Source of the DNA: a virus
Length of the DNA stretch: 64,000 nt
Reading direction: 5' to 3' (one strand)
IMG/VR virus record: IMGVR_UViG_3300050821_002957
Coordinates: 15,192 to 79,191 of that record
Part shown: positions 1,515 to 52,238 of the stretch, piece after piece
Layout of the letters: each line of letters begins with the position of its first letter
Position numbering within the stretch: position 1 is the stretch's first letter
Position numbers and translations under genes: made by a program
The notes under the pieces: generated by a model
The model's database searches: none
What the model was told of the DNA's origin: nothing
What the model saw: only the letters and a program-made list of their open reading frames with translations

Positions 1515-1523
1515 GGTCATGAA

Positions 1524-4036: not shown

Positions 4037-4042
4037 GACTCA

Positions 4043-4072
4043 AGTTCTAACATACTCGATTAAGGCTGTCAA
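4043..4072 (-). promoter_or_regulatory. sigma70-like promoter on the minus strand: TTGACA, 17-nt spacer, TAGAAC; ATG 7 nt downstream (leaderless geometry)
   Basis: The reverse complement of 4043-4072 reads TTGACAGCCTTAATCGAGTATGTTAGAAC, followed by TTGAGTC and then ATG. Confidence 0.4.
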
Positions 4073-13253: not shown

Positions 13254-13721
13254 TCAATGAGTTGCGGTGTTCGTGCTGACATATGCCACCAAACATCTGG
13301 CAAATTCAAGTACATCGGAATCAGCGTACTTATTTTTGCAAGTATTGTAGATCCAAACTACCAATTGACAATTATCCGGGGTATAGCCTTTGGTTCTGTC
13401 AATTCGATCAATACTAGGGGCACATTTCGATTCCGTGGTCTCTCGATCAAACAGCATTCCGGTTCTTTCACAATGACCTTTTTCTAATCTGTCAATACAC
13501 CACTGACGGTCGATAGTGACCTCCAACCCACTTCCTTTGGCTCGAAATTTAGCACCACTGATTAGTTTACTGGCTTGTCCCTTAACAGTTTTTCTGTATT
13601 TTTGTAGGGATTTTTTGTGGCTCTCTTTATAACGCTTATTAGTACGTTGATATTCCTTCATGTACTCTTTCATACGAGCGTTGACTTTGGCCTTTTTTGC
13701 TTCGGGACTCTTTTTCATCAT
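13254..13721 (-). CDS. HNH-family homing endonuclease (paralogue of 19615-20127)
   Basis: APSIDRIDRTKGYTPDNCQLVVWIYN motif; about 45 % identical over the C-terminal half to the protein encoded at 19615-20127. Confidence 0.55.
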   Translation of the reverse strand: MMKKSPEAKKAKVNARMKEYMKEYQRTNKRYKESHKKSLQKYRKTVKGQASKLISGAKFRAKGSGLEVTIDRQWCIDRLEKGHCERTGMLFDRETTESKCAPSIDRIDRTKGYTPDNCQLVVWIYNTCKNKYADSDVLEFARCLVAYVSTNTATH

Positions 13722-13751
13722 CGCAAGATATTTAGCGATGTATTGAAAGAC

Positions 13752-15939: not shown

Positions 15940-15983
15940 AATTACTTGTATTTAGCAAAGTAGATATGCAGGAAGAATCCAGC

Positions 15984-25558: not shown

Positions 25559-26535
25559 TAGCTTAAATCTCCATAATCAAGGATCAAATCAGCGCTTCCT
25601 GTAAAGCTGAATGATGTTCCATTTGTCACGAGGTAAGACAAGAAACCATCAAAACCGCCCGAGCGAACCGATGCCCCACTGATATAGTTGTAATTGGTTG
25701 CTGTTCCGAGGTACGTATTGCTGCCATTTATGGTCGCCAAGGCAATATCAAAATTTTTGTCCGTCGCAGAAGTACACGCTGTAGTTACCAAAAGACGATA
25801 CCAACCGCCACTCACCGGAACGATAGAAGCATTTGCCAAAGCACCTATTGTGCCAAGCAAACCATTTTCAATATCAAACCACGCCCAACGATGTTCTGAA
25901 CCTGCAAGATTCTGCCCGATCAACATATATTGGACAGAATTGTACTTGGCATAGACTGAGAACGTATAGGTGTTGCCGATGACCAAATTATCAGGTGTAG
26001 CAGAAACCATGTTGATTCCGCTCGAAGTTCCTTCAAGCATCTTTGTTCCTGGAGACCCATTCGGAAGAGAACCAGAAGTAGTCGGTACAGTAACACCGCT
26101 TGCCTTACTCCAATAGCTTTGAGTGAAATCCTCGCTCCATTCCAACAAATTTTCATTCGTCGCAAATCCAGTGAAATTCGCCTGTGTCAAAAATGAGCCG
26201 ACACTTTCAATTTCCGCCGATACTTGGTTGTGTTGATATGAAAGAATATAGCCGAAGACATTGGTTGCGCTAGTATGAGACGCTGCGGTCGATCCAGCGA
26301 ATCCACGGACACAACTAGTGAAGTTATTGCTGGACGTGCTTTGTGCCAGAATGATTTCACTGTCGATCACAATAAGACAAGGTGTGTTGAAACTAGCCAC
26401 CGATGTTACACCAATGGTCGTGTCACCTGTTCCGATATTTGCAGTAAGCGTTGTTTCGGCATTGTCGCTGGCAACGCTCAGAATGGTGTCATTCGGGACC
26501 ACGTAAGGGAATGCAGGAGTATTTGGATTAGACAT
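25558..26535 (-). CDS. tail fibre protein (family E N-terminal domain shared with 39267-40328)
   Basis: PCLIVIDSEIILAQS...CVRGFAGSTAASH...GYILSYQHNQV parallels CLVQIDTEIILVGS...CTRGYNLTSPTSH...GYVLAYHHNQI. Confidence 0.55.
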   Translation of the reverse strand: MSNPNTPAFPYVVPNDTILSVASDNAETTLTANIGTGDTTIGVTSVASFNTPCLIVIDSEIILAQSTSSNNFTSCVRGFAGSTAASHTSATNVFGYILSYQHNQVSAEIESVGSFLTQANFTGFATNENLLEWSEDFTQSYWSKASGVTVPTTSGSLPNGSPGTKMLEGTSSGINMVSATPDNLVIGNTYTFSVYAKYNSVQYMLIGQNLAGSEHRWAWFDIENGLLGTIGALANASIVPVSGGWYRLLVTTACTSATDKNFDIALATINGSNTYLGTATNYNYISGASVRSGGFDGFLSYLVTNGTSFSFTGSADLILDYGDLS

Positions 26536-26557
26536 ATGCGTTTGTATTTAGTACACT

Positions 26558-29460: not shown

Positions 29461-30723
29461 TTAGGTGATAGTGACAAAAAGCGTTCCTCTAGCTCCTAAA
29501 CTGTTATTGCCGCCAGCACCAAAATTGTTGTGTGTGATTGCAACCCAGTTGTGACTGTCCAAAGAATTGATCGTTGTTTCACAAGGGTATCCGTCATTGG
29601 AGACAAAGGCATTCCACAACTGTCCACGGAAATAACTTGTATCACCTACCCCAGTGAGTCCCCAGCCAATTAATGGATCACTCATAACAGCACTCATGTC
29701 ATGCCATAGAGAACTACCGGGACTTTCTGCTGCCATCATATATGTTGCAGTCTGAGTTGATGCTAGAGATTGATAGCCTGGGCCGTCGCTATTATCACTT
29801 GTTTGGTCTACTAAGTTTCCATTACAAAGATGTTGAAAACTTGGACTTGGTTCTGTTCCATTCCAAATCGAACAAGCTAATCGTGTCCGAAATGAAATCC
29901 TAGGCTGCGATGGAACGTCTGAATCTGAAGCAGCATTTCCTTGCAGCCACATGGCTTCCCAAATTGCACCTTGAAGTGAAGTTGGAATAAATGGCACACC
30001 AAAGGCAGCATAATCCCGAGACTGAACAGATCCAGGAACAACAATAAATGCTTGGTATTTGTTGCCATACATTTTGAAACCTTTTCCTGCGGCAGGGAGA
30101 AGCATTGTTCCGTTGCTATTTCCATTGGCTCCCACCTTTGAACCTGAAACATTTTGAAGGCTGATGCCAACTGTATTTGAGTTTGTTGTGGTGATTGTCA
30201 CCTGCATCCGTAAATTTTGTGAAGCTGGTGAGCATGAAGACATACAGACAATCGAACTTGAATGATGGCCCGATACTGTAATCCACCCAGAAGCAACTAA
30301 ATTATCCTCAATACCGGATGCCAAATCCTGTTTTGTATCGCCGATGAAAGAATTGGCTACAACCGAACCACCTGTATAGGTTTGATAAGAATTTCCACCC
30401 GAAACGAACCCCAAAATTGTATTGGAATTGTTAGATGGAGAATTGAACAAAATGGTTGAAGACAGTCCGAGAGACGATCCATCACGAATGCGAACGTAGT
30501 TGATTCCGTTGATCGTACAAACTGATGCTGTGGCTCCAGCCAAACCAGAAAGATCAGTAACGATTTGTGCGGCAGTTCGAGCAGAACCGTTCGTAAGCGT
30601 AAAGACTTGAGCCGATCCACCATCAATACTTACGGAGAATTGATTGTTAGACGAAGTTATGTTGTAAGGCTCTGGGAGCGTATTTACAGCATCAGCGACA
30701 GAATCAGCAAATTGAATAGACAT
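29461..30723 (-). CDS. fibre-like protein (family D; paralogue of 30732-31940)
   Basis: MSIQFADSVADAV...SVSIDGGSAQVFTLTNGS parallels MSIQFMDLNADAV...SVTIDGGSAQVFTLTHGS; C-terminal GQLWNAFVSN domain. Confidence 0.55.
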   Translation of the reverse strand: MSIQFADSVADAVNTLPEPYNITSSNNQFSVSIDGGSAQVFTLTNGSARTAAQIVTDLSGLAGATASVCTINGINYVRIRDGSSLGLSSTILFNSPSNNSNTILGFVSGGNSYQTYTGGSVVANSFIGDTKQDLASGIEDNLVASGWITVSGHHSSSIVCMSSCSPASQNLRMQVTITTTNSNTVGISLQNVSGSKVGANGNSNGTMLLPAAGKGFKMYGNKYQAFIVVPGSVQSRDYAAFGVPFIPTSLQGAIWEAMWLQGNAASDSDVPSQPRISFRTRLACSIWNGTEPSPSFQHLCNGNLVDQTSDNSDGPGYQSLASTQTATYMMAAESPGSSLWHDMSAVMSDPLIGWGLTGVGDTSYFRGQLWNAFVSNDGYPCETTINSLDSHNWVAITHNNFGAGGNNSLGARGTLFVTIT

Positions 30724-30731
30724 AATTTTAT

Positions 30732-31940
30732 TTAGGTGACAACGAAGAAAGATCCCCGACCTGTAGTTGATGTGCCAGTATTACTAGATGTGAGATTTTG
30801 CCAATTGGCTCCATCAATCGAAGTCAAAGTAGAATCGATAGTATATGATTCATTTGAGACGAAAGCATCCCAAAGCTGTCCACGACCCATTGCTTCGTCG
30901 GTAGCGGCTGTCAAACCGTACATAATGATGGGGTCTCCTAACATTGCACTTGCATCGTGCCATCTGTACCAACTAGCTGTTGTGCCGGGAAAAATATTTC
31001 CAAACTGGTTCAACAGACACATCATACCTGCGCCGCCGCCTGTAGGATTATTTGCAATTTCCCAAAGATTGTTATTCGTGATGAAGGTACAATTTCCAAT
31101 TCCCGGACTACCGCCCCAACCTAAAGCAGTCCTAAATGAACCTCGTACCGATGTATCTGAATCTGATGCCGCATTCCCATTAAGCCAGATTGCTTCGTAA
31201 ATGACCGTTTGCAAAAATGAAGGAAGACAAGGTACACCGAAACCAACATAACCTCGTGCCGTACTAGAACCAGGAACAAAAGCAAACGCCTGATACTTGT
31301 CAGCGATTACCTGATATGAACCATTTGATGGCAGCAAAAATCCACCATTGCTTGTGCCCTGTGTGCCTGCTTTTGTTCCCGTCACATTGGAGATTGTCAC
31401 ACCAAGACAATTCGTACTTGCGTATAAGCTGACCCTCATTCTCAAATTTGAAGGATAGGGCGTCATGGACGATTGCAGAACGGTAGGTATCGAATGATGT
31501 CCCGAAATTGTAATCCATCCGGCACTGTTAAGAGCATCCTCAATACCAGAGGCTACAGTCTGCTTGGTCGAAGTCGAAAATGTAGAACTGACATTCGCAC
31601 CACCAGTATATGTGGTCGCCACGAATCCTAAAGTTGAATTAGCATTGCTAGATGGAGCATTTATCAAAATTGTCGAACTTGATCCAAGTGCCGAAGTATC
31701 ACGAATACGGACGTAATTTGCACCGTTGACTGTTGCTACTGATGCTGTTGCTCCAGTCAAAGCGGAAAGGTTTGACACAACCGTAGCAGCAGAAACCGTA
31801 GAACCATGTGTAAGAGTAAAGACCTGGGCTGAACCACCATCAATGGTCACCGACAATTGATCATTTGACGACGAGATATTATATGTGTCGTTCACCGTGC
31901 CTACTGCATCGGCATTGAGGTCCATAAATTGAATTGACAT
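30732..31940 (-). CDS. fibre-like protein (family D)
   Basis: Tandem paralogue of the preceding gene; the C-terminal domain is also shared with the protein encoded at 35201-36106. Confidence 0.55.
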   Translation of the reverse strand: MSIQFMDLNADAVGTVNDTYNISSSNDQLSVTIDGGSAQVFTLTHGSTVSAATVVSNLSALTGATASVATVNGANYVRIRDTSALGSSSTILINAPSSNANSTLGFVATTYTGGANVSSTFSTSTKQTVASGIEDALNSAGWITISGHHSIPTVLQSSMTPYPSNLRMRVSLYASTNCLGVTISNVTGTKAGTQGTSNGGFLLPSNGSYQVIADKYQAFAFVPGSSTARGYVGFGVPCLPSFLQTVIYEAIWLNGNAASDSDTSVRGSFRTALGWGGSPGIGNCTFITNNNLWEIANNPTGGGAGMMCLLNQFGNIFPGTTASWYRWHDASAMLGDPIIMYGLTAATDEAMGRGQLWDAFVSNESYTIDSTLTSIDGANWQNLTSSNTGTSTTGRGSFFVVT

Positions 31941-36106: not shown

Positions 36107-36107
36107 G

Positions 36108-37187: not shown

Positions 37188-37189
37188 AC

Positions 37190-38236: not shown

Positions 38237-38239
38237 TGA

Positions 38240-39265: not shown

Positions 39266-39266
39266 G

Positions 39267-44112: not shown

Positions 44113-44846
44113 TAGATCGGGTCTCCAAAAATATTCTTCTCAGTCGTACTGGTCTGCGGTGTGGAACCTGACGGAGGATTAAGATTTACCGTCGATTTGT
44201 CAGTAAGGTTTGTCGTCGCTCTAGTCTTGAGTGTGTTATTGTCGGCCAGCGGATCGTTCGCCACACTATCAATATTTTCAAAGACTGACTGGACGGCATC
44301 GATTGCAGGCACGCCCGTCGAAAACTTTTCGCTAGAGTAGTCAAACTTCTGGACATCGACACGCCAAATGTAACGATAGCCAACCTGATAGAACACGCTT
44401 TCATGTTCCGTAAAATTGATTTGGAAGAGATCGTTAGTCAGTGGCAAATAAATCAAGCTGCCTTCCATCGGTCTCTGTTCTGGTAAAGTGTAATTCGTGA
44501 TCGGGACGTTGTTGAAGCCGTCTGATTTCGTCGCTTGATTAAATCTACGTCTCGACACGATGAAATTTGCTGTCTCACGCATTTCAAGACCAAACTTACT
44601 GATCATGTAACGGTCGCCGCCAAAACCTTCAGACGGATTGTCAAAGTACATCTCGATTGGGAAAGAAGTTTTGAACGTGACGAGAGGATCTTCACCGAAC
44701 ACTGGATCAAGTTTCCCTGGAGTGCGAGGAATGTAATAGACCTTCATTCCGTTGATTCGGATCGCTTCGACAATCAAATCTTCGACTAGACGTTGTTCGC
44801 CCTTGCCGCCGAGCGTATTGAAGTAGTGGTTGACATTTCTCGCCAT
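44112..44846 (-). CDS. 14: neck protein, T4 gp14 family
   Basis: GEDPLVTFKTSF and GSLIYLPLTNDLFQINFTEHESVFYQVG correspond to T4 gp14 GEDLKNKFTKAW and [28 protein letters not shown]. Confidence 0.8.
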   Translation of the reverse strand: MARNVNHYFNTLGGKGEQRLVEDLIVEAIRINGMKVYYIPRTPGKLDPVFGEDPLVTFKTSFPIEMYFDNPSEGFGGDRYMISKFGLEMRETANFIVSRRRFNQATKSDGFNNVPITNYTLPEQRPMEGSLIYLPLTNDLFQINFTEHESVFYQVGYRYIWRVDVQKFDYSSEKFSTGVPAIDAVQSVFENIDSVANDPLADNNTLKTRATTNLTDKSTVNLNPPSGSTPQTSTTEKNIFGDPI

Positions 44847-44859
44847 ATCTGCTATTTAG
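44830..44859 (+). promoter_or_regulatory. sigma70-like promoter for Tpt1 (TTGACA, 17 nt, TATTTA; ATG 6 nt downstream) overlapping the divergent minus-strand late CTAAATA motif for gp14
   Basis: TTGACA 44830-44835; TATTTA 44853-44858; the plus-strand TATTTAG at 44853-44859 is the reverse complement of CTAAATA, 6 nt from the gp14 ATG. Confidence 0.45.
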
Positions 44860-44863
44860 AGAT

Positions 44864-45406
44864 ATGAACAAAATTCAAATGAGCAAATTTTTGTCGTATG
44901 TGTTACGGCATAAACCAGATTCCATCGGCATCGTCCTGGACAAAGCCGGATGGATCGATATTGATGAATTGATTGAAAAAAGTATTGCAGATGGCAAAGC
45001 CTTGGACCGCCTGTTACTTTACGATATCGTGGCTGAAGACAACAAACAGCGCTACGCCATCAGCGAGGACGGAAAACGGATTCGAGCAAACCAGGGGCAC
45101 TCTGTAGAAGTCGATCTGGAATTAAAAGCTGCGATTCCTCCTGTCAAATTGTTCCACGGCACCTATGTGGAAGCGGTCGATACGATCCTAAAACAGGGAT
45201 TGAAAAAAATGAAGCGCCACCACGTTCATTTGTCTGCCGATCCTGAAACAGCGGGAAAAGTGGGAAGTCGGCGAGGAAAAGCCGTTGTACTTGAAATCAA
45301 CACCAAAGATATGGTGAAACGAGGCATCAAGTTCTTCATTACGGCAAACGGGGTATGGCTCACAGATTTTGTCGATCCTGAATTCATTTCAGTTCCAACA
45401 ACTTAG
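44864..45406 (+). CDS. kptA: RNA 2'-phosphotransferase, Tpt1/KptA family
   Basis: LSKFLSYVLRHKPDSIGIVLDKAGWIDIDEL...HGT...GLKKMKRHHVHLSAD...NGVWLTDFVDPEFI matches the KptA/Tpt1 signature throughout. Confidence 0.8.
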   Translation: MNKIQMSKFLSYVLRHKPDSIGIVLDKAGWIDIDELIEKSIADGKALDRLLLYDIVAEDNKQRYAISEDGKRIRANQGHSVEVDLELKAAIPPVKLFHGTYVEAVDTILKQGLKKMKRHHVHLSADPETAGKVGSRRGKAVVLEINTKDMVKRGIKFFITANGVWLTDFVDPEFISVPTT

Positions 45407-45438
45407 AGCCTTCCCCGAAAAAATTTTTACAAAAAGTG

Positions 45439-45467
45439 TTGACTTGATACATCAATCTTGCTAGGAT
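45439..45467 (+). promoter_or_regulatory. sigma70-like promoter (TTGACT, 17 nt, TAGGAT); the Ku ATG is 7 nt after the -10 (leaderless)
   Basis: TTGACT 45439-45444; TAGGAT 45462-45467; ATG at 45474; GATACATC motif inside the spacer. Confidence 0.55.
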
Positions 45468-45473
45468 GGGTTC

Positions 45474-46394
45474 ATGGCAACGCATACTAAACCATCCACT
45501 CCCGATACGAACGCTGCTTCTTACCGAGCGTTCAAAACTGTAACCCTTAGCCTGAACGGTATCACCACTTTCCCGGCCAAACTGATTTCTGCGACGAGCG
45601 AAGAAAAGTCTCCCTTCCGACTCTGCGTAGTAAAGGACGGCAAGGCGCTTCCGGTCAGCCAGTTTTACACCGCAGACAACAAGGAATATTTTCCCATCGG
45701 CCAACTTGGTCGTGCAATTGAAATGGGGGAATCTCTAATTCCTCTGACTGCTGAGGAAATCTCCAGCACGAAAAAAATCGACGAAGAAGATGTGGATCAC
45801 GCCAAGAAATCTTTGATCGAACTGACGAGCTTCGTACCGTTGGCGCAGGTTGATCCGGTGTTTTTCCTCAATGGTTACGTAATTCTGCCGAATTTGGACA
45901 CAAAGGGCAAAGGCAATCCTCAGGCGGCGAATCTGTATCACATTCTGCTGCGTGCCCTGCTCAAGTCTGGGCGTGTCGGTGTCGCCAAGATGTACGACCG
46001 TGATCGTGAGTACAACATCATCGTTCGTCCAAGCACCGATGGCAAACGGTTGATGCTCCATACGATCTACACCAGCAATGAAGTGCGTGTGATTGATGTT
46101 CCTTCTCCCACCGTCATTGTGGATGAAATGCTAGTTGACCAGGGTGTCGAACTAATTTCCCTGAATTTTTCCAACTTCGATGCCACGTCGGTGTTTTCTC
46201 AGACGGACAACGCTGTTGCTTCTCTCGTCGCTCGCAAGAAAGCCGAAGCGAATGGCGAGACGGTTCCCGATACCCCTCACAAGACTTCGACTACCAACGT
46301 CGGCAGTTCTTTGCTGGATTCGTTGACGGCTTCCGTGAACATGGCGAAGGCGAAGAAAGCCACGCCTGCCACCACCACTACAGCGTCGGCGTAG
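45474..46394 (+). CDS. ku: Ku-domain DNA end-binding protein homologue
   Basis: YRAFKTVTLSLNGITTFPAKLISATSE, ...FVPLAQVDPVFFLNGYVILP..., ...LYHILLRALLKSGRVGVAKMYDRDREYNIIVRP...RLMLHTIYTSNEVR align with the bacterial Ku core (e.g. Mt-Ku RAIWTGSIAFGLVNVPVKVYSATAD, ...VDPMMFDRSYFLEP..., ...VLLAKTLAETDRMAIVHFTLRNKTRLAALR...VMMVHTLLWPDEIR). Confidence 0.75.
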   Translation: MATHTKPSTPDTNAASYRAFKTVTLSLNGITTFPAKLISATSEEKSPFRLCVVKDGKALPVSQFYTADNKEYFPIGQLGRAIEMGESLIPLTAEEISSTKKIDEEDVDHAKKSLIELTSFVPLAQVDPVFFLNGYVILPNLDTKGKGNPQAANLYHILLRALLKSGRVGVAKMYDRDREYNIIVRPSTDGKRLMLHTIYTSNEVRVIDVPSPTVIVDEMLVDQGVELISLNFSNFDATSVFSQTDNAVASLVARKKAEANGETVPDTPHKTSTTNVGSSLLDSLTASVNMAKAKKATPATTTTASA

Positions 46395-46420
46395 TTTTTT
46401 CTCTCTCCTGTTTTGAAAAG

Positions 46421-46449
46421 AAGCGGCCCCTAAAAAAGGCCGCTTTTTT
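46421..46449 (+). terminator. rho-independent terminator after the Ku gene
   Basis: AAGCGGCC-cctaaaaaa-GGCCGCTT 8-bp stem followed by TTTTTT. Confidence 0.7.
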
Positions 46450-46460
46450 AGATGTATCTA

Positions 46461-46489
46461 TTGACATTGGTGACTGGGTTTGGTAAGAT
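46461..46489 (+). promoter_or_regulatory. sigma70-like promoter (cTATTGACA, 17 nt, TAAGAT); ATG 7 nt downstream (leaderless); AGATGTATCTA motif immediately upstream of the -35
   Basis: TTGACA 46461-46466; TAAGAT 46484-46489; ATG at 46496. Confidence 0.6.
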
Positions 46490-46495
46490 TGGATT

Positions 46496-46954
46496 ATGCA
46501 AACGACACATTTCCCCGCTCCTCCGAAATCGATCCCGGCTCATCTCCTCCCCAAAACAAAAATGACCAAACGAGACCGAGAGTTTCAAGTCATCTACAAT
46601 GAGGCTCGAATCGCTGGCCTAGAGGCCGGTCGTACTTGCGGTGTCGTGCCAATGGTTGTCGAGCAGCACGCCAACCCCGCAAATGATGCATCACCAGTTA
46701 CACAGTCATGGTTCGTCGAGGGCGGCGTCTGCGGTTTCGCCTGGATCAAAATCAAACCGGCAAATTCTCCCTTTGCAAATTGGCTGAAGAAAAACGGCCA
46801 TGTTCGACCGGGCGCAGCGTATGACGGTGGCGTCAATGTGTGGGTGAAAGATTTCGGCCAGTCCATGCAGCGCAAAGAGGCATTTGCTTATGCCTTCGCC
46901 GACGTGTTGAACAAAGCTGGAATCAAGGCTTACGCCCAAAGTCGGATGGACTAA
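46496..46954 (+). CDS. hypothetical early protein
   Basis: Leaderless ATG set by the promoter geometry. No confident family assignment; conserved-looking C-terminus GVCGFAWIKIKP...WLKKNG. Confidence 0.45.
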   Translation: MQTTHFPAPPKSIPAHLLPKTKMTKRDREFQVIYNEARIAGLEAGRTCGVVPMVVEQHANPANDASPVTQSWFVEGGVCGFAWIKIKPANSPFANWLKKNGHVRPGAAYDGGVNVWVKDFGQSMQRKEAFAYAFADVLNKAGIKAYAQSRMD

Positions 46955-46955
46955 T

Positions 46956-47489
46956 ATGGACCTCGAAAAAGCATTCTTTGCCATTCAAGATCAACTTCGT
47001 ATCGCCGAGATGGAATACACCAAAACTCAACTTGGTCTCCGTCAAGAGGTTGAACGAAACATCAATCGCTTCATGGCTACTCTTGACATCACGAAAACTG
47101 TCGCCGATCTACGTGAGGCCCATGTCAAAGCGGGAAAACTCATGATTGAAGAGAAGGAACGCAAAGCACAGGCCGGGGAAAATGCACCGTACCCAATCGG
47201 CACCAAAATGAAATGCACGAAACTAGTTCGTCGTCATGGTCGTTATCGTGGCGACGAAACTACGATCTACGGCGTCGTCGAAGGCGTGACTCGTGATACA
47301 GTTTTGCCTATGACAATGGGATGCCGGTCGTGGCGTAAACCAGCCATCGGCAGCTACATCGTTCGTATTCTGAAAGCTGATGGGACACCTGGGAAAAATT
47401 TTGAAGAACTTTATGATCGCTGGACTCCGATGGACGAAACCATCCAGCGCAACGTGCCGGTTCTTCAAGTCACAGAGGAAATGCTTTAA
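46956..47489 (+). CDS. hypothetical protein
   Basis: TAATATG coupling to the previous gene. Confidence 0.45.
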   Translation: MDLEKAFFAIQDQLRIAEMEYTKTQLGLRQEVERNINRFMATLDITKTVADLREAHVKAGKLMIEEKERKAQAGENAPYPIGTKMKCTKLVRRHGRYRGDETTIYGVVEGVTRDTVLPMTMGCRSWRKPAIGSYIVRILKADGTPGKNFEELYDRWTPMDETIQRNVPVLQVTEEML

Positions 47490-47491
47490 CT

Positions 47492-47698
47492 ATGACACCA
47501 GCACTTACCGAATACCTTAAGACCGATTATCTGACCATTCTCGATCATCCGGCGCTTTCTCTCGACATGAAAGTCGGCTACCTGATGGCCGTCGTCAACA
47601 TCGATCCGGCTGCACACGGAGCGTCTCATCTACCTTTACGGGAACTTGCAAAGGCTATGAGAACGTTCGTCAGTGCATACACGACAGGAAGCTGGTAA
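47492..47698 (+). CDS. hypothetical small protein
   Basis: Start abuts the previous stop (TAACTATG coupling). Confidence 0.35.
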   Translation: MTPALTEYLKTDYLTILDHPALSLDMKVGYLMAVVNIDPAAHGASHLPLRELAKAMRTFVSAYTTGSW

Positions 47699-47699
47699 A

Positions 47700-47936
47700 A
47701 TGCTACTTCATTCCGAATTACAAGGCACACACGACGCCTACGGCCCAGCCATGACGATTCAGGAAATGCTTGACCTCCTGAGATCAATTCCACGGCAGGC
47801 TCGTCAAAATTACTTGTCGATGGTGGACAAAGATGGTAACATTGTCGATGTCACCGGGCTGCATTTTGCCCAGAGCGACCAAGCAGAGAAGTGGGAATTC
47901 AAAGTTTACGTCGTGACATCAAACAGCAAGGAATGA
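47700..47936 (+). CDS. hypothetical small protein (start at MLLHSELQG)
   Basis: ATG immediately after the previous stop. Confidence 0.35.
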   Translation: MLLHSELQGTHDAYGPAMTIQEMLDLLRSIPRQARQNYLSMVDKDGNIVDVTGLHFAQSDQAEKWEFKVYVVTSNSKE

Positions 47937-47937
47937 C

Positions 47938-48411
47938 ATGAAAAAATTATCCAAAGTCCATCTGAACAATCGAGACATCGTTACGGCAGCATTGCGTGAA
48001 ACCTTACAGACGTTCACTGAGGCGGTCGGTGAATACAATACAGAAGAGCAAGAGGCATTTGAGGTTCTTCAGACTGCCATCACTGCCTACAATGAACGCA
48101 TGGTCGAAGCCTGGGAAAAGGTCGAAACAGCACAGACGGCGCACAACGAATCGATAGACGCCGCCAATGAGTGGATGGGCCAGATTGTTTCAGACATCGA
48201 CGAATACATGTCGGGCAAGTCTGAAAAATGGCAAGACGGTGACGCAGCACAGGCGTACTCTGAATGGAAAGCTGCGTTTGAAGAAGACCTCGAACAAGAA
48301 GACATGGAACAACCGGAACAAATCGAAATCGAACAACCGGATGAACTCTCTCTTAACAGCGACGAAGATCCGGCTGATAAACTGGAACAACTACCCGAAG
48401 AATTGGGATGA
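47938..48411 (+). CDS. very acidic helical protein (candidate DNA mimic / anti-restriction type protein)
   Basis: 157 aa with an Asp/Glu-rich C-terminal half (EEDLEQEDMEQPEQIEIEQPDE); AAGGAATGAC Shine-Dalgarno-like sequence. Confidence 0.4.
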   Translation: MKKLSKVHLNNRDIVTAALRETLQTFTEAVGEYNTEEQEAFEVLQTAITAYNERMVEAWEKVETAQTAHNESIDAANEWMGQIVSDIDEYMSGKSEKWQDGDAAQAYSEWKAAFEEDLEQEDMEQPEQIEIEQPDELSLNSDEDPADKLEQLPEELG

Positions 48412-48584
48412 TCTTTCAGAAGAGAAAAGACGGTCTGATTGAAGCCATCATTGCCTGGAAGAGCTATATTGTCGTTGGATATGGCTCTTCGGAAGAAAAG
48501 GCAGCGCTTAATGCATACCGAGCGATTTGCAACTCCATACTTGATTGACAAAAATCCAATCAATGCGACACTAAATACGCATTG

Positions 48585-49082
48585 GTGGATGATCGCATAC
48601 GTCAAAAACTCGCTAATCTAGTTCGTCTGGCGAAGCGACCCGGTAACCCTCATGAGGGCGAAGCCGCTCGACTTGCTGCTATTCGACTGTCTCTGAAATA
48701 TGGGATAGCGTGTGAATTTACTGCAAGCGGTACAAATCATACCAGTACTCGACCCACAGCGAGTGCGCCGCCGCAAAGTTCGACACAGGAGACCCCTGTT
48801 TCTGACGATGTGATCTTCTACCAATGGATCAAAGCTCTAGCCAAACTTGGTTGGGGAATCCACGACTGCATCGACACCAAAATTGGACGCCAGATAAAAT
48901 TCCGCAAAGCTGGTTACAATTCTGAATTACGAGTCACACAGAGGGCCAAGGGCAACGGTCAAGACTTTGAGGCCGAGCACATTAAACGTCCTGATTCAAT
49001 CAATGGCGAGGATGTTTCCTTTTGCATTTTTATGACGATCCATCTTGGCGAACTCATCCGGCATATTTCATACACTAAATAG
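48585..49082 (+). CDS. DUF2786-like protein (N-terminal RIRKLLALAE-type motif); GTG/TTG start
   Basis: VDDRIRQKLANLVRLAKRPGNPHEGEAARLAAIRL; the plus-strand late-type CACTAAATACGC motif at 48569-48580 lies 8 nt upstream. Confidence 0.4.
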   Translation: MDDRIRQKLANLVRLAKRPGNPHEGEAARLAAIRLSLKYGIACEFTASGTNHTSTRPTASAPPQSSTQETPVSDDVIFYQWIKALAKLGWGIHDCIDTKIGRQIKFRKAGYNSELRVTQRAKGNGQDFEAEHIKRPDSINGEDVSFCIFMTIHLGELIRHISYTK

Positions 49083-49086
49083 CATC

Positions 49087-49347
49087 ATGAAATCCAAGTC
49101 TCTAATCCTTTGGGCAGCGATCCTTTTCGCATTGGGGCGCATATTCATTACGCCTCGCCTGACGAACATTCCCACGGTGACGGGAACTTACGAATCACTG
49201 GCGCATTTGTTTGTTGGCTTTTTGATCCTCGTGCCCTTCTATGATCGTAAAGAAGAGCTTGGACCTTCCAAATTGTACGGTTGGATCGGCTGGGGACTAG
49301 CGAGCGGGGAAGCCGTCTGGTTTGCGGTACAAAAAATCCACGGATAA
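49087..49347 (+). CDS. small membrane protein (two predicted transmembrane helices)
   Basis: MKSKSLILWAAILFALGRIFITP...; ACTAAATAG motif 5 nt upstream of the ATG. Confidence 0.4.
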   Translation: MKSKSLILWAAILFALGRIFITPRLTNIPTVTGTYESLAHLFVGFLILVPFYDRKEELGPSKLYGWIGWGLASGEAVWFAVQKIHG

Positions 49348-49354
49348 ATAGGGC

Positions 49355-49867
49355 ATGAAACTGAGAGCCGTATTACCATTCTTGCTTTTACCCCTCCTTC
49401 TCGTATCATCATCCCTATCTGTTGCTGATTCCGAAGCTGCCTCACCACAAGTCATTATGATGATGTATCATCGTGCGTATCCAAAGTACGTACCAGAACA
49501 CATCACACCAGAATTTCTGAAAGAAAAACATGAATTAGAACAGGTCTACAAAAAGTGGGCTGTAATCTTTCATATGGAAGATTGGAATACAGAAGTGACG
49601 CCGGTCCCGCTTTCCTTCCTTAAAGAATTTTGTCCGTCTGAATGTTTTGCCGGAAGCAACTGGAACATCTATGACGAAAGCGGTGTAATGTTCATTCTCC
49701 AACGATCAGAATACACTAACGAAATGAAAAAGAGTTTGCGTCAGCGACATGTAAGTATCTGGTCTGATCAACGAAACAGCGTTCTTCATGAAATTCTTCA
49801 CAATGTAATTGAACATGGATACGAAGAAGCCGTAGTCAGCACACTTGCAAATTTGTTGAATCCCTGA
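49355..49867 (+). CDS. secreted protein with a Sec signal peptide
   Basis: MKLRAVLPFLLLPLLLVSSSLSVADS; GGATAAATAGGGC motif 4 nt upstream of the ATG. Confidence 0.45.
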   Translation: MKLRAVLPFLLLPLLLVSSSLSVADSEAASPQVIMMMYHRAYPKYVPEHITPEFLKEKHELEQVYKKWAVIFHMEDWNTEVTPVPLSFLKEFCPSECFAGSNWNIYDESGVMFILQRSEYTNEMKKSLRQRHVSIWSDQRNSVLHEILHNVIEHGYEEAVVSTLANLLNP

Positions 49868-49879
49868 TAAGCTCGCTAA

Positions 49880-50704
49880 ATGGGCGTAGACGCACGTATT
49901 CTCCTTAAAATCACCGATTCTGCCGCATGGCTCGATGCAGCACAACTTAGGAACATCTCAGCTAGGCTTACTGAGGCCATCGGCTACGACCACTTCTTCA
50001 TCGATACAGATGAAGATCGTCATGCAATTTCATTTGTAATCGACGAGAACAAAAAGTATCCCGCCGACTATGAACAGGAACCCGGCAAACCTTTCGATCC
50101 GACTGGTCCTGCGGTCTACGGACAAGATTCCAATGAAGAACCATATTTGATCGCCAAACCGAACGAACAATTTCTTGAAGTGCATCTATTCTCTCGATAC
50201 TACGGTGAAGACTATGCTCGTGGGGATTGGCCGATGATCTACTTCACGCTGATGTGGTGCTTTCACAATATTCCTCATTGTGAAGTCTGGTACGGTGGTG
50301 ATTCCAGCGGTTGTCTCATGGAACACATGACAGTGGAACGTATGGTCGAAGTGACAAAATTCTTTTTGACAACAGGCTACAAGACATATCGCACTTACGC
50401 CCGAGACCATGAATACATCTGTGAATTTTGTAAGGTCATAGCTATTAGGTCTGGTGGCGGTGGTGGGACAGATTTTTATTCATGCGATTCCTGCGGCCAA
50501 CATTGGAACATCGAACATGTAGGTGCATTCAAACGTTTGGTGACCCGGTTTGGAGATGAGCCGACCGACGACAAACACGACAACAAAATCCCGTCGTTTA
50601 CGATGTCCCAACAAATGCGAGAAGGAAAACGCACACTCTATCCATTCGATGGCATTTTCCGCAAAAGATACGCTCCAAAGGTTGAAAAACAGACCGTTCA
50701 ATAG
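49880..50704 (+). CDS. hypothetical protein with a C-terminal Cys cluster
   Basis: CEFCKV...SCDSCGQHW. Confidence 0.45.
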   Translation: MGVDARILLKITDSAAWLDAAQLRNISARLTEAIGYDHFFIDTDEDRHAISFVIDENKKYPADYEQEPGKPFDPTGPAVYGQDSNEEPYLIAKPNEQFLEVHLFSRYYGEDYARGDWPMIYFTLMWCFHNIPHCEVWYGGDSSGCLMEHMTVERMVEVTKFFLTTGYKTYRTYARDHEYICEFCKVIAIRSGGGGGTDFYSCDSCGQHWNIEHVGAFKRLVTRFGDEPTDDKHDNKIPSFTMSQQMREGKRTLYPFDGIFRKRYAPKVEKQTVQ

Positions 50705-50724
50705 CTCCTATCTGATAGTGCCAC

Positions 50725-50753
50725 TTGACTTTAGCAGCAAAGTGTGGTAAGAT
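50725..50753 (+). promoter_or_regulatory. sigma70-like promoter (TTGACT, 17 nt, TAAGAT) with an AGATGTATCTA motif overlapping the -10; the downstream gene has a conventional AAGGAG leader
   Basis: TTGACT 50725-50730; TAAGAT 50748-50753; ATG at 50786. Confidence 0.55.
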
Positions 50754-50785
50754 GTATCTAGTGGCGCATCTCAGAAAGGAGCAAT

Positions 50786-51286
50786 ATGCTGCTAAAAAAT
50801 ACATCCCAGTACAGTGATCAGATAGTACGGTTCATCGTCAAGCACGCCGCCAGCACTATCGATATAAGCAACGTTGCAATCAACGTCAAGAATTCTACTC
50901 ATCGGTACGCTGGTCGAGCATTTCCGTACATTCCTTCTGAATCACCTTGGCGGGGAACTCCGAAGGCTCGATACCTGATCGTCTGTCGTGTCGGTGGGCC
51001 AAAATTATTCCCCTATCAATGCAAAGGATACCCCGGACGCAAAATTGAAAATGGTCGCTGGCCGACGCCTTTGCTCGCCGATTGGATGGAATGCATGGTC
51101 ATGTTGGTTGCTCATGAACTTTTTCACATTCAGCAATTCCGTGTGAAAGCTCGATGCACCGAACTCGAAACTGAAGCCTTCGGAATGCGCCGCCTGGAAG
51201 CGTGGAGAGAGCTTGTCGCTGCTGGGAAGGTGCCGAGCCTGCCTCTTCAAACGAACGGCTGTAGCGTCTCAGAAGCGCAAGAATGA
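50786..51286 (+). CDS. hypothetical protein with an HExxH motif (possible zinc metallopeptidase)
   Basis: MLVAHELFHIQQF, followed by Glu residues about 20 aa downstream. Confidence 0.4.
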   Translation: MLLKNTSQYSDQIVRFIVKHAASTIDISNVAINVKNSTHRYAGRAFPYIPSESPWRGTPKARYLIVCRVGGPKLFPYQCKGYPGRKIENGRWPTPLLADWMECMVMLVAHELFHIQQFRVKARCTELETEAFGMRRLEAWRELVAAGKVPSLPLQTNGCSVSEAQE

Positions 51287-51420
51287 GGTATTGGCTGCGA
51301 AGCTCGAACATTGCCAAGCCATGCTCCAAAAGAACACGACCAAAATGAAACGTGCCGAGACCATCGTCAAAAAGTGGCGCACCAAAGTCCGATACTACGA
51401 AAAAAAGATTGATACATCTA

Positions 51421-51449
51421 TTGACATCTCGGTCTGAAGTTGCTATCAT
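51421..51449 (+). promoter_or_regulatory. sigma70-like promoter (TGATACATCTATTGACA, 17 nt, TATCAT); ATG 8 nt downstream (leaderless)
   Basis: TTGACA 51421-51426; TATCAT 51444-51449; ATG at 51457. Confidence 0.55.
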
Positions 51450-51456
51450 AGGTTTA

Positions 51457-51576
51457 ATGAAACGCAACGGACACCAAATCAAAAAGATCGGTTACACTCG
51501 CAAGGGCTGGAGCAAAAACTATGCTATCCGTGCCGACCGCCGCAACGGGAAAGCCGCTGCCAAGGACACCAACTAA
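51457..51576 (+). CDS. small basic protein (39 aa)
   Basis: MKRNGHQIKKIGYTRKGWSKNYAIRADRRNGKAAAKDTN; the only ATG at leaderless distance from the promoter. Confidence 0.3.
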   Translation: MKRNGHQIKKIGYTRKGWSKNYAIRADRRNGKAAAKDTN

Positions 51577-51577
51577 C

Positions 51578-51766
51578 ATGAACAACTTCACCAAACCCTT
51601 CATTGTTTGGTCGATTGGTGATTTTGAAGGATGGATTCCGCAAGAATTCGAGTCCCAGGAAGCCATCGTCGAAGCGATCAAGAAGGGCGAAATCCGTGGT
51701 GAATACGCCGTAACTCGATTAATGCCGGTCAAGGTCACCGTCGATTTGCAAGACTGTGTACGATAA
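51578..51766 (+). CDS. hypothetical small protein (start MNNFTKP)
   Basis: TAACATG coupling. Confidence 0.35.
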   Translation: MNNFTKPFIVWSIGDFEGWIPQEFESQEAIVEAIKKGEIRGEYAVTRLMPVKVTVDLQDCVR

Positions 51767-51776
51767 AGGAAAAACC

Positions 51777-51941
51777 ATGCAACCAACCATTCGTGAATCT
51801 CTTAAAAACGCTTTGGAAGCCCTGAAATCCTCAGGCTTCCCTCCGGGCGGCGCAGTGTACGACGATCTGAACCAAGTTCTTCTCGATTTGGGCAACGAAG
51901 ATATGTATGGGACGCTGCTTGAAGATCAGTTGACGGCATAA
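51777..51941 (+). CDS. hypothetical small protein (start MQPTIRE)
   Basis: AAAGGAAAAACC Shine-Dalgarno-like sequence. Confidence 0.35.
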   Translation: MQPTIRESLKNALEALKSSGFPPGGAVYDDLNQVLLDLGNEDMYGTLLEDQLTA

Positions 51942-51957
51942 AAGATACATCTACCCA

Positions 51958-51986
51958 TTGACACCAAACAGAGAAATTGGTACACT
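51958..51986 (+). promoter_or_regulatory. sigma70-like promoter (AGATACATCTAcccaTTGACA, 17 nt, TACACT); ATG 7 nt downstream (leaderless)
   Basis: TTGACA 51958-51963; TACACT 51981-51986; ATG at 51993. Confidence 0.55.
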
Positions 51987-51992
51987 TTACTC

Positions 51993-52238
51993 ATGGGACT
52001 TGGAAACAACAGAGATTATGTCAAGAGCGAACGGAAGATCAAATGCCGTCTCGCTGTCCTCGCACAAAGAACAAAGGAATTGACGGACACTGGCATGGGC
52101 TATGGCACTGCGTTCCGGCAAGCATCCGCAGGACTCAATGCTGGTGAACTGGGAGACCGACTCAAAGCCTGGGTCGATCCGGTCCTAAAGCACAAACGTG
52201 AAATCCGTGCGGCACGAAAGGCGGCAGAAAATGACTAA
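51993..52238 (+). CDS. hypothetical small protein
   Basis: Leaderless geometry. Confidence 0.4.
   Translation: MGLGNNRDYVKSERKIKCRLAVLAQRTKELTDTGMGYGTAFRQASAGLNAGELGDRLKAWVDPVLKHKREIRAARKAAEND

What the first reader, a model, noticed from the sequence alone, without database searches (positions are those of the whole stretch)
44830..51995. Sigma70-like promoters positioned to give leaderless mRNAs (ATG 6-8 nt after the -10) in five of six cases
Six plus-strand elements match TTGAC(A/T)-N17-TA(a/g/c)(g/a/c)(a/c)T: 44830-44858, 45439-45467, 46461-46489, 50725-50753, 51421-51449 and 51958-51986. In five of them (all but 50725) the first A of the ATG lies 6-8 nt after the -10, so the transcription start coincides with the start codon (Tpt1, Ku, the 46496 ORF, the 51457 ORF, the 51993 ORF). 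The same geometry appears at 1486-1524 (plus) and 4043-4072 (minus). A whole class of leaderless early genes is unusual for a T4-like phage and hints at a host, or a phage strategy, that favours leaderless translation.
Basis: seen in the sequence. Interest (0 to 1): 0.7.

Follow-up and report, generated by a model that had tools for sequence, protein, structure and literature searches.

The report
Leaderless genes in a T4-like phage
In this large T4-like phage and its uncultured relatives, many promoters sit so close to the first gene that the messenger RNA should begin exactly at the start codon, an arrangement known from other phages and bacteria but absent from T4 and a cyanophage examined as controls.

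Summary
Six plus-strand elements, TTGAC(A/T)-N14-TGn-TAnnn(T/A), lie at the stated coordinates. In five of them the A of an ORF-opening ATG is 6-8 nt after the -10 hexamer, which is where RNA polymerase normally starts. Chance probability is about 3e-6 in the window.

The arrangement is conserved. Across the window and ten related uncultured phage loci, 30 of 50 such promoters have the ATG at +6 to +8 (20 at exactly +7; P about 2e-25), with C or T at -1 in 29 of 30. Ku orthologs keep the same N-terminus whether leaderless (4 lineages) or preceded by a 30-55 nt leader (6 lineages).

The same geometry occurs at late promoters. CTAAATA-N5-ATG puts +1 on the start codon of the neck-protein gene and others. 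T4 (100 kb) and cyanophage P-SSM7 (41 kb) show none of this.

About 39% of the window's ORFs carry Shine-Dalgarno motifs, so leaderless starts are a promoter-proximal class and not a replacement for SD initiation.

Weak points:
- No transcript ends have been mapped.
- The 44830 promoter has a poor -10 (TATTTA).
- The 46496 and 51457 starts are not confirmed.
- At 1486 the ATG is at +10.
- The host is unknown.

Verdict: a new member of a known kind, moderately interesting.

The parts
44830..44866 (+). Early promoter TTGACA-17-(TGC)TATTTA with the ATG of Tpt1 (44864) at +6. This is the weakest case. Its -10 is the reverse complement of the late promoter of the divergent neck gene. Its -35 lies in that gene's conserved N-terminal codons.
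   Evidence: Pfam PTS_2-RNA 5.5e-51. Tpt1 is leaderless from TTGACW-17-TATATT in L035-L037 but has a 24-nt leader in L001.
45439..45476 (+). Early promoter TTGACT-17-(TGC)TAGGAT with the ATG of Ku (45474) at +7. This is the best-supported leaderless start.
   Evidence: The N-terminus M(A/E/P)TQTK is conserved in 10 orthologs. The same geometry is present in L001, L021 and L022.
46417..46449 (+). Intrinsic terminator after Ku (12-bp stem plus U run). It makes Ku a monocistronic unit.
   Evidence: -17.6 kcal/mol, z -2.6
46461..46498 (+). Early promoter TTGACA-17-(TGG)TAAGAT with ATG 46496 at +7. It is the first gene of a roughly 4-kb operon. The first 22 codons are not conserved in distant homologs, and Met23 (46562) is an alternative start.
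49845..49882 (+). The -35 is weak.
   Evidence: Orthologs in L035, L036 and L037 are leaderless at +7 from TTGACA promoters.
50725..50788 (+). Early promoter of the same type with a 32-nt leader and AAAGGAG before ATG 50786. This is the leadered class.
51421..51459 (+). Early promoter TTGACA-17-(TGC)TATCAT with ATG 51457 at +8, opening only a 39-aa basic ORF. The alternative is an 81-aa ORF from 51521 with GGAG 8 nt upstream.
   Evidence: codon-frame score +1.4 against -2.1; ambiguous
51958..51995 (+). Early promoter TTGACA-17-(TGG)TACACT with ATG 51993 at +7 (81-aa ORF).
   Evidence: the L022 homolog aligns from residue 1; clearly coding
4036..4072 (-). Early-type promoter TTGACA-17-(TGT)TAGAAC with ATG 4036 at +8 (97-aa ORF).
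1486..1526 (+). TTGACA-17-TAGACT without the TG extension. The ORF-opening ATG 1524 is at +10, which implies a leader of about 2-3 nt. The ATG at 1519 is a two-codon mini-ORF.
44844..44859 (-). Late promoter CTAAATA-N6-ATG of the neck protein gene (gp14-like, 44112-44846).
   Evidence: (PF11649). N5 spacing with ATG or GTG is conserved in L016, L025, L026, L035-L037 and L019.
30721..30735 (-). CTAAATA-N5-ATG before the 420-aa gene 29461-30723. The motif overlaps the stop codon of the upstream paralog, so translational coupling is an alternative.
5638..5652 (-). CTAAATA-N5-ATG before the 155-aa gene 5173-5640.
49075..49089 (+). CTAAATA-N5-ATG before the 86-aa membrane-like ORF 49087-49347, inside the plus-strand block.
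13719..13735 (-). CTAAATA-N7-ATG before gene 13254-13721.
15937..15955 (-). CTAAATA-N9-ATG before the portal gene, implying a leader of about 3-4 nt with no SD.
26533..26551 (-). CTAAATA-N9-ATG before gene 25558-26535, implying a leader of about 3-4 nt.
45444..45455 (.). 12-bp palindrome TTGATACATCAA in the spacer of the Ku promoter. It is a candidate operator.
   Evidence: conserved in L001
46449..46460 (.). Palindrome TAGATGTATCTA abutting the -35 of the 46461 promoter.
   Evidence: the same arrangement is in L001 at 7163
50749..50760 (.). Palindrome-like AAGATGTATCTA overlapping the -10 and +1 of the 50725 promoter.
51409..51420 (.). Palindrome TTGATACATCTA abutting the -35 of the 51421 promoter.
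51942..51953 (.). AAGATACATCTA, 4 nt upstream of the -35 of the 51958 promoter.

Best explanation
The elements are genuine host-type (sigma70 group 1) early promoters of a T4-like jumbo phage. They have a consensus -35 (TTGACA), a 17-18 bp spacer and an extended -10 (TGnTAnnnT). In most of them the first gene's ATG lies so that its A is the 7th (sometimes 6th or 8th) base after the -10 hexamer and follows a pyrimidine. This is the position and Y(-1)/R(+1) context at which bacterial RNA polymerase normally starts.

The transcript would therefore begin 5'-pppAUG with no 5' UTR and no Shine-Dalgarno sequence. Its first cistron would be translated by the leaderless pathway, in which a ribosome with fMet-tRNA recognises a 5'-terminal AUG. 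Downstream cistrons of the same operon would use SD motifs or stop/start coupling.

The same design is used at part of the late promoters. CTAAATA corresponds to positions -12 to -6 of T4-type gp55 promoters. With 5 nt to the ATG or GTG, +1 again falls on the start codon.

Shown here:
- the motifs, the distances and their statistical excess
- conservation across relatives
- conserved N-termini
- absence of the geometry in T4 and cyanophage controls
- coexistence with SD-led genes

Inferred:
- the actual +1 positions
- the promoters' activity and timing
- the translation mechanism

The benefit is unknown. The most likely reading is that the unidentified host translates 5'-AUG mRNAs efficiently, as leaderless-rich bacteria do, so promoter-proximal leaders are dispensable.
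For: Motif and geometry:
- Enrichment is 7 against 1.19 expected.
- Five of six ATGs lie at +6 to +8, P = 2.8e-6.
- These are the only ATGs in the window with this geometry at high stringency, and each is the first ATG of its ORF.

Clade-wide conservation:
- There are 50 distinct promoters in the window plus 10 related loci.
- The distance distribution is bimodal: +6:1, +7:20, +8:9, against 18-37 nt for the leadered class.
- P = 2e-25; the -1 base is C 21, T 8, A 1.
- Leadered promoters of the same type do not carry ATG at +7, so the ATG is not part of the promoter itself.

Start-codon confirmation:
- Ku: the N-terminus is conserved in all 10 orthologs. Four are leaderless and six have a 30-55 nt leader with SD.
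- The 51993 ORF homolog aligns from residue 1.
- An independent gene caller starts Tpt1, Ku, the 46496 ORF and the 51993 ORF at these ATGs.

Other support:
- A terminator lies between Ku and the next promoter.
- The 5' AUGs are unpaired in predicted centroid structures.

Late promoters:
- Of 17 CTAAATA motifs upstream of ORF starts, 7 have 5-9 nt to the ATG, with the mode at 5.
- The neck gene keeps CTAAATA-N5-ATG/GTG in L016, L025, L026, L035-L037 and L019.
- Published numbering places T4 TATAAATA at -13 to -6 and Aeh1 CTAAATA from -12 (PMC1524935).

Controls:
- T4, 100 kb: early-type motifs lie 21-44 nt from the ATG and late motifs 14-52 nt.
- P-SSM7: 20-46 nt.

Precedent:
- Thermus phage phiYS40 makes leaderless middle and late mRNAs (PMC3594737).
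Against: - No transcript 5' ends or protein N-termini are available. The +1 position is inferred from E. coli-type polymerase geometry.
- The 44830 promoter has -10 TATTTA. Its -35 and -10 are explained by other constraints (neck-gene codons and the reverse complement of the late promoter), and the same pair exists in L001, where Tpt1 uses a different, leadered promoter.
- The first 22 codons of the 46496 ORF are absent from distant homologs, and the codon-frame score is ambiguous.
- The 51457 ORF is only 39 aa, and an SD-led 81-aa alternative exists.
- The -10 of the Ku promoter (TAGGAT) contains AGGA 8 nt before the ATG. It could serve as an SD on read-through transcripts.
- At least one late case (30735) overlaps an upstream stop codon, so coupling could explain it.
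- 39% of ORFs have SD motifs, so leaderless initiation is not required by the host.
Confidence: 0.75

Rival explanations
1. The promoters are real, but transcription starts a few bases away from the A. That would give 1-5 nt leaders, or transcripts that lack the AUG and are translated from a downstream start. The genes would then be short-leadered and not strictly leaderless.
For: - Distances vary: +6, +7, +8, and +9 to +12 in a few promoters.
- Late promoters with N7-N9 would give 2-4 nt leaders.
- At 1486 the ATG is at +10.
- The 46496 ORF and the 51457 region each have a plausible downstream start: Met23 in frame for 46496, and the 51521 ATG in another frame for 51457.
Against: - There is a sharp mode at exactly +7 (20 of 50) with a pyrimidine at -1, which is what selection for +1 = A of the ATG predicts.
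- Ku and many long ORFs in relatives have no alternative start.
- Leaders of a few nucleotides behave essentially as leaderless, so this rival differs in degree more than in kind.
Confidence: 0.12
2. The first cistrons are mainly translated from longer read-through or upstream-initiated transcripts. Initiation would then be SD-like, using purine-rich bases within the -10 region, or by coupling. On this view the promoter-to-ATG spacing reflects genome compaction and not a leaderless mechanism.
For: - TAGGAT and TAAGAT -10 hexamers contain AGGA or AAGA at 8-9 nt from the ATG.
- There is no terminator between Tpt1 and Ku.
- The 17-nt divergent intergenic region at 44847-44863 shows strong compaction.
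- The CTAAATA at 30735 overlaps a stop codon.
Against: - Most -10 to ATG segments in the 30 cases have no SD-like tetramer, for example TACACTttactc, TACTCTtaattc and TAGACTtaagac.
- Ku is followed by a terminator immediately before the 46461 promoter, so that ATG cannot be reached by read-through.
- Tpt1 and the 4036 gene head divergent units with no upstream same-strand gene.
- Compaction alone would not fix the distance at exactly +7. A phage whose contig is 405 kb is not obviously under pressure for space.
Confidence: 0.08
3. The pattern is a coincidence or an annotation artefact. On this view the motifs are not promoters and the ATGs are not start codons.
For: - The generic promoter scanner finds no overall excess of loose sigma70-like sites in 44-54 kb (11 against 10.6).
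- The TTGACA and TATTTA at 44830 can be explained by other constraints.
Against: - The strict motif is enriched 6-fold.
- All instances are intergenic and upstream of ORFs on the right strand.
- P is about 1e-6 in the window and about 1e-25 in the clade.
- The promoter sequence and geometry are conserved in phages whose Ku proteins are only 50-66% identical.
Confidence: 0.02

Closest known systems
Leaderless ('TA-led') genes of bacteria such as Mycobacterium, Deinococcus and Thermus
   Same: - A -10 element ends about 6-8 nt before the start codon, with no SD.
- They are typically the first genes of operons and coexist with SD-led internal genes.
- Small ORFs occur at transcript 5' ends.
- Orthologs interconvert between leadered and leaderless forms (PMC3160421; PMC4633059; PMC4007540 abstract).
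   Different: Here the genes belong to a phage of the T4 structural lineage. The promoters have a strong consensus -35 and an extended -10. The host is unknown, so it cannot be said whether the phage mirrors its host.
Thermus phage phiYS40 (and P23-45) leaderless middle/late transcripts
   Same: A large lytic phage in which a whole temporal class of mRNAs lacks leaders (review PMC3594737).
   Different: - In phiYS40 the leaderless class is middle/late and is linked to raised IF2 and lowered IF3.
- Here both early (sigma70-type) and late (CTAAATA) promoters show the geometry.
- No effect on initiation factors can be assessed.
- No sequence relationship was tested.
Lambda cI mRNA from PRM and other leaderless phage repressor mRNAs
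   Same: Transcription starts at the A of the AUG, and translation is by 5'-terminal AUG recognition (PMC9031893; established knowledge).
   Different: Those are single regulatory genes of temperate phages. Here about 13-14 of 82 ORFs in the window are affected, including structural genes of a lytic T4-like phage.
T4 and T4-like early and late promoters
   Same: - Early: -35, spacer and extended -10 recognised by the host sigma70.
- Late: TATAAATA or CTAAATA at -13/-12 to -6 (PMC1524935).
   Different: In T4 and cyanophage P-SSM7 these promoters sit 14-52 nt upstream of start codons with SD sequences. None gives a leaderless geometry.

Membership tests
Leaderless (TA-led) genes | The -10 promoter element ends about 6-8 nt upstream of the start codon. 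| tested here: met
   +6, +7, +7, +8, +7 and +8 in the window; 30 of 50 in the clade
Leaderless (TA-led) genes | No Shine-Dalgarno sequence or 5' UTR precedes the start codon. | tested here: met
   Only 5-7 nt separate the -10 from the ATG. Most of these segments lack AGGA, GGAG or GAGG. The exception is the Ku promoter, whose -10 hexamer TAGGAT contains AGGA.
Leaderless (TA-led) genes | The start codon is a genuine initiation codon (AUG, or GUG in some hosts). | tested here: inconclusive
   - Confirmed by ortholog N-termini for Ku, Tpt1, the 51993 ORF, the 49880 ORF and the neck protein.
- Unresolved for 46496 and 51457.
Leaderless (TA-led) genes | The mapped transcription start coincides with the first base of the start codon. 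| not testable with these tools
   No transcriptome or 5'-end data are available. This is inferred from polymerase geometry and the Y(-1)/A(+1) context.
Leaderless (TA-led) genes | Protein is made from the 5'-terminal AUG. | not testable with these tools
   Needs reporters, ribosome profiling or N-terminal proteomics.
Sigma70-type early promoters of T4-like phages | A -35 hexamer, a 16-18 bp spacer, and a -10 with A at -11 and T at -7, often with an extended TG. | tested here: met
   T at -7 is missing at 44830 (TATTTA) and 4072 (TAGAAC). Relatives also have TACAAA and TACAAC with the TG extension.
Sigma70-type early promoters of T4-like phages | Early temporal expression by unmodified host RNA polymerase. 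| not testable with these tools
   Inferred by analogy with T4 (PMC1524935).
T4-type late (gp55) promoters | A TATAAATA or CTAAATA motif at about -12 to -6, upstream of structural genes. | tested here: met
   There are 21 CTAAATA in the window, 17 of them directly upstream of ORF starts, mostly structural genes.
T4-type late (gp55) promoters | The genome encodes gp55, gp33 and the gp45 clamp. | not tested
   None was identified among the window ORFs scanned, and not all ORFs were scanned. Only 64 kb of a 405-kb contig is available.
phiYS40-like reprogramming of initiation factors | Infection shifts the IF2/IF3 ratio to favour leaderless mRNAs. | not testable with these tools
   Known only from a review. 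Nothing in the window bears on it.

The most novel reading that the evidence does not exclude
This clade of T4-like jumbo phages may have reorganised gene expression around leaderless first cistrons in both the early (sigma70) and late (gp55-type) programmes. This would be coupled to a conserved 12-bp palindromic operator at the early promoters. The phage, and not only the host, would actively favour 5'-AUG initiation, for example by altering initiation factors or ribosomes as proposed for phiYS40, or by escaping SD-targeted mRNA cleavage or a host defence. That would be the first translation-level strategy of this kind in the T4 lineage.
Probability: 0.15. Interest if true: 0.75.

Novelty: new member of a known kind. 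Interest (0 to 1): 0.5.

Why it matters
Leaderless mRNAs are well known in some bacteria, in archaea and in a few phages. The T4 lineage, however, is the textbook case of SD-led, leader-regulated phage translation (RegB, RegA, structured initiation regions).

A T4-like clade in which most early promoters and part of the late promoters abut the start codon would have four consequences.
1. It improves start-codon and small-ORF annotation in uncultured large phages.
2. It gives a sequence signature that may point to a host lineage proficient in leaderless translation.
3. It offers natural ortholog pairs, such as Ku with and without a leader, for studying how leaders are gained or lost.
4. It raises the testable question of whether phages exploit leaderless initiation for timing or for evading host or phage nucleases that target SD regions.

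Tried and rejected
Searches that found nothing useful:
- Megablast of 44-52.5 kb against GenBank phages gave no match.
- The metagenome contigs and genome-contig scans with the Ku alignment found nothing.
- The viral-contig scans with the 51521 ORF and the 4036 ORF found no relatives, so those starts could not be tested by conservation.
- The contig of the closest Ku relative (66% identity) has no DNA on file.
- There are no tRNA genes and no Rfam hits in the window.
- Pfam and PHROGs scans of the small early proteins found no regulator or translation factor.

Host identification failed:
- Portal relatives in GTDB MAGs are only 44-51% identical and sit in bins of mixed taxonomy: Chloroflexota, Actinomycetes, Nitrosarchaeum.
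- Those contigs have ordinary leadered late promoters, so they say nothing about this clade.

Tests that did not resolve:
- The codon-usage frame test could not resolve the 39-aa ORF at 51457 or the first 22 codons of the 46496 ORF.

Ideas rejected:
- That the ATG is part of the promoter's initial transcribed sequence. Leadered promoters of the same type lack it.
- That the -10 doubles as an SD in general. Most cases have no SD-like tetramer.
- That the 8-bp core GATRYAYC alone is significant. It occurs 29 times against about 17 in mononucleotide shuffles (maximum 36), which is not an excess. The 10-mer GATRYATCWA is enriched, with 10 matches against 1.2 expected.

Full report
WHAT THE WINDOW IS. 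The 64-kb window is part of a T4-like myovirus.
- The minus strand between about 4.1 and 44.8 kb encodes portal (PHROG 213, 1.5e-197), tail sheath, large terminase, scaffold and neck proteins.
- The portal is only about 52% identical to those of cyanomyoviruses, and there is no nucleotide match in GenBank phages.
- The identical Ku protein is recorded on a public contig of 405,631 bp. The same phage is present in a Logan assembly (L020).
- From 44,864 to about 53,800 the plus strand carries a block of small, mostly unknown genes that begins with Tpt1/KptA (Pfam 5.5e-51) and Ku (1.2e-18).

THE OBSERVATION.
- The pattern TTGACW-N17-TANNNT occurs 7 times against 1.19 expected, and none of 100 shuffles reached 7.
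- Every element also has the extended -10 dinucleotide TG, so the fuller consensus is TTGAC(A/T)-N14-TGn-TAnnnT.
- The element at 44830 deviates, with -10 TATTTA.
- The A of an ATG that is the first ATG of an ORF lies +6 (44864), +7 (45474), +7 (46496), +8 (51457) and +7 (51993) after the -10.
- The 50725 element is followed by a 32-nt leader with AAAGGAG.
- With the window's ATG frequency, at least five of six at +6 to +8 has P = 2.8e-6.
- Among all 2378 ATGs of the window, the only ones with at most one -35 mismatch and a TG-extended -10 at this distance are these five plus the minus-strand one at 4036. Each is the first ATG of its ORF.
- The minus-strand element (4072-4044, TTGACA-17-TGT-TAGAAC, ATG at +8) is as described.
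- The 1486 element is only approximately so. An ATG at +5 is followed by a stop after two codons, and the ORF-opening ATG is at +10.

CONSERVATION IN RELATIVES. Ku homologs and a neighbouring structural protein led to ten related loci from uncultured phages. Their Ku identity is 49-64%: L001/L016, L021-L026, L035-L037. All loci long enough to show it share the synteny neck protein, then a divergent Tpt1-like gene, then Ku. One relative comes from a hospital wastewater virome (PMC7452251).

The same promoter type recurs in these loci.
- Over the window and these loci there are 50 distinct TTGACN-N13-15-TGn-TAnnnN motifs.
- The distance to the first ORF-opening ATG is bimodal: +6 once, +7 twenty times and +8 nine times, then scattered values from 18 to 37 nt that carry SD motifs (P = 2e-25 for 30 of 50 at +6 to +8).
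- The base before the ATG is C in 21, T in 8 and A in 1. This is the pyrimidine(-1)/purine(+1) context favoured at bacterial start sites (established knowledge).
- Leadered promoters of the same type have no ATG at +7, so the ATG is not a promoter component.

THE START CODONS.
- Ku gives the cleanest test. All ten orthologs begin M(A/E/P)TQTK. In four lineages (window, L001, L021, L022) this ATG is at +7. In six it is preceded by a 30-55 nt leader containing a hairpin and AAAGGA. The ATG at 45474 is therefore the real start, and leaders have been gained or lost during evolution.
- Tpt1 is leaderless (+7) from TTGACW-17-TATATT in L035-L037 but has a 24-nt leader in L001.
- The 51993 ORF has a homolog in L022 that aligns from residue 1.
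- The 274-aa ORF at 49880 has orthologs that are leaderless at +7 in L035-L037.
- An independent gene caller starts Tpt1, Ku, the 46496 ORF and the 51993 ORF at these ATGs.

Two starts stay uncertain.
- The first 22 residues of the 46496 product are absent from 48-54% identical homologs in other phages, which are SD-led.
- The 51457 ORF is only 39 codons, and the gene caller prefers an 81-aa ORF from 51521 with GGAG 8 nt upstream.
- A codon-usage frame test was ambiguous for both.
- Small ORFs starting at +1 are nevertheless typical of leaderless-rich organisms (PMC4633059) and recur in the relatives at 34-60 aa.

TRANSCRIPTION UNITS. A strong terminator (-17.6 kcal/mol) lies between Ku and the 46461 promoter, so read-through cannot supply that ATG. 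Tpt1 and the 4036 gene head divergent units. The predicted 5' ends have an unpaired AUG in the centroid structures of all six mRNAs.

EXTENSION TO LATE PROMOTERS.
- The motif CTAAATA occurs 21 times in the window, and 17 of these are immediately upstream of the first ATG of an ORF.
- Published numbering puts T4 TATAAATA at -13 to -6 and the Aeh1 variant CTAAATA from -12 (PMC1524935). CTAAATA-N5-ATG therefore places +1 on the A.
- Seven late genes have 5-9 nt: N5 at 49075(+), 30735(-) and 5652(-); N6 at the neck gene (44859-); N7 at 13735(-); N9 at the portal and at 26551(-). The other ten have 13-49 nt with SD.
- The neck gene keeps CTAAATA-N5-ATG or -GTG in L016, L025, L026, L035-L037 and L019.
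- One case (30735) overlaps the stop codon of the upstream paralog and could be coupling.
- At 44830-44863 the two systems overlap. The early -10 TATTTA is the reverse complement of the late CTAAATA, and the intergenic space is 17 nt. This makes the Tpt1 promoter the least secure.
- Even so, -10 hexamers without the final T but with the TG extension also occur in conserved leaderless promoters of relatives (TACAAA, TACAAC).

CONTROLS. The same scripts were run on other T4-like phages.
- T4, 100 kb: 18 early-type motifs lie 21-44 nt from the ATG, apart from one chance ATG 2 nt after the -10. TATAAATA lies 14-52 nt from the ATG.
- Cyanophage P-SSM7, 41.5 kb: late motifs lie 20-46 nt from the ATG.
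- More distant T4-like contigs in MAGs are also leadered.
- A T4 review on post-transcriptional control does not mention leaderless mRNAs.
- phiKZ has no leaderless transcripts, and AR9 has 26-491 nt UTRs.

The arrangement is therefore unusual for the T4 lineage, though not for phages in general. Thermus phage phiYS40 has leaderless middle and late mRNAs, and lambda cI is the classic single case.

SD USE. Of 82 ORFs in the window:
- 32 have AGGA, GGAG or GAGG at -18 to -4 (background 6.9%)
- 13 have the leaderless geometry (6 early-type, counting 1524; 7 late)
- 37 have neither, and many of these are coupled

The host ribosome therefore uses SD. Leaderless starts are confined to promoter-proximal cistrons, the same mixed pattern as in leaderless-rich bacteria (PMC3160421).

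MECHANISM AND CONFIDENCE. The best explanation is that host RNA polymerase (early) and the late-promoter machinery start on the A of the ATG, and that the first cistron is translated by 5'-terminal AUG recognition.
- I put 0.75 on this for the class as a whole.
- It is higher for Ku, the 51993 ORF and the neck gene, and lower for Tpt1, 46496 and 51457.
- The rivals are short leaders (0.12), read-through or coupling (0.08) and chance (0.02).
- Nothing here identifies the host or any phage factor acting on translation.

VERDICT. It is a new member of a known kind: leaderless genes, here in a T4-like clade and at both promoter classes. Interest is moderate (0.5). The pattern is robust and clade-wide, but it is computational only, and the phenomenon itself is established elsewhere.

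Noticed in passing
window 45444-45455, 46449-46460, 50749-50760, 51409-51420, 51942-51953; L001 7161-7172; L022 3982-3993, 6004-6015, 6917-6928, 7713-7724; L035 10128-10139, 11224-11235: A 12-bp palindrome, TWGATRYATCWA, accompanies most early promoters of the clade in two fixed registers. It either abuts the -35 on its upstream side or lies in the spacer just after the -35. Once it overlaps the -10 and +1. GATRYATCWA occurs 10 times against 1.2 expected. It looks like the operator of a dimeric regulator of the early promoters. No candidate protein was found.
   Followed up: partly
window 44830-44866: Divergent early and late promoters overlap on opposite strands within a 17-nt intergenic region. 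The early -10 (TATTTA) is the reverse complement of the late CTAAATA of the neck gene. The early -35 lies in the neck gene's conserved codons (MARNVNH). Relatives (L001, L025, L035-L037) keep a separate Tpt1 promoter downstream, so the window version looks like a deletion derivative.
   Followed up: partly
window 44864-46394 and L001, L022, L035-L037: A T4-like phage carries an RNA 2'-phosphotransferase (Tpt1/KptA) and a bacterial-type Ku next to the neck genes. The order neck, Tpt1, Ku is seen in L001, L035-L037 and the gene table of the P0002 contig. In L022 only Tpt1 and Ku are on the contig. In L023-L026 the slot before Ku holds other genes. Ku may protect the linear genome ends, and Tpt1 suggests an RNA repair pathway. 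Neither idea was examined.
   Followed up: no
L023 10104-10150, L025 3248-3277, L035 2840-2885, L036 9955-10000, L037 7398-7447: Where Ku is leadered, most of these leaders contain an inverted repeat (GTAAGC...GCTTAC; L025 has a different one, GTGAGa...cTCAC) followed by an A-rich, SD-like purine tract (AAAGGA in several). This may be a 5' stabiliser or a regulatory hairpin. It is absent from the leaderless lineages.
   Followed up: no
window 48545-48590: The DUF2786 gene appears to start at GTG 48585, which aligns with the ATG of its orthologs in L024 and L035. It is preceded by TTGACA-16-TGC-GACACT, which overlaps a late CTAAATA (48571-48577). This would be a possible dual early/late promoter with a leader of only a few nucleotides (0-6 nt).
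   Followed up: partly
window 29461-31940 and 35201-40328 (minus strand): Tandem arrays of similarly sized genes (301-420 aa). Several of their products begin MSIQ, MAIQ or MSII. They look like a paralogous family within the structural module.
   Followed up: no
(protein P0001): The identical Ku protein is recorded on a contig of 405,631 bp, so this T4-like phage may have a jumbo genome. Only 64 kb was available here.
   Followed up: no
L026 11952-19590: The contig of one relative carries fragmented chemotaxis, two-component and ferrochelatase genes (MCPsignal, HAMP, Hpt, Response_reg, SpoIIE) right after the phage early block. These could be auxiliary genes, a chimeric assembly or a frameshift-rich long-read contig.
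   Followed up: no
window 51457-51576: A 39-codon, very basic ORF (MKRNGHQIKKIGYTRKGW...) starts at the predicted +1 of the 51421 promoter and ends 1 nt before the ATG at 51578. It could be a leaderless small protein or an upstream ORF coupled to the next gene.
   Followed up: partly
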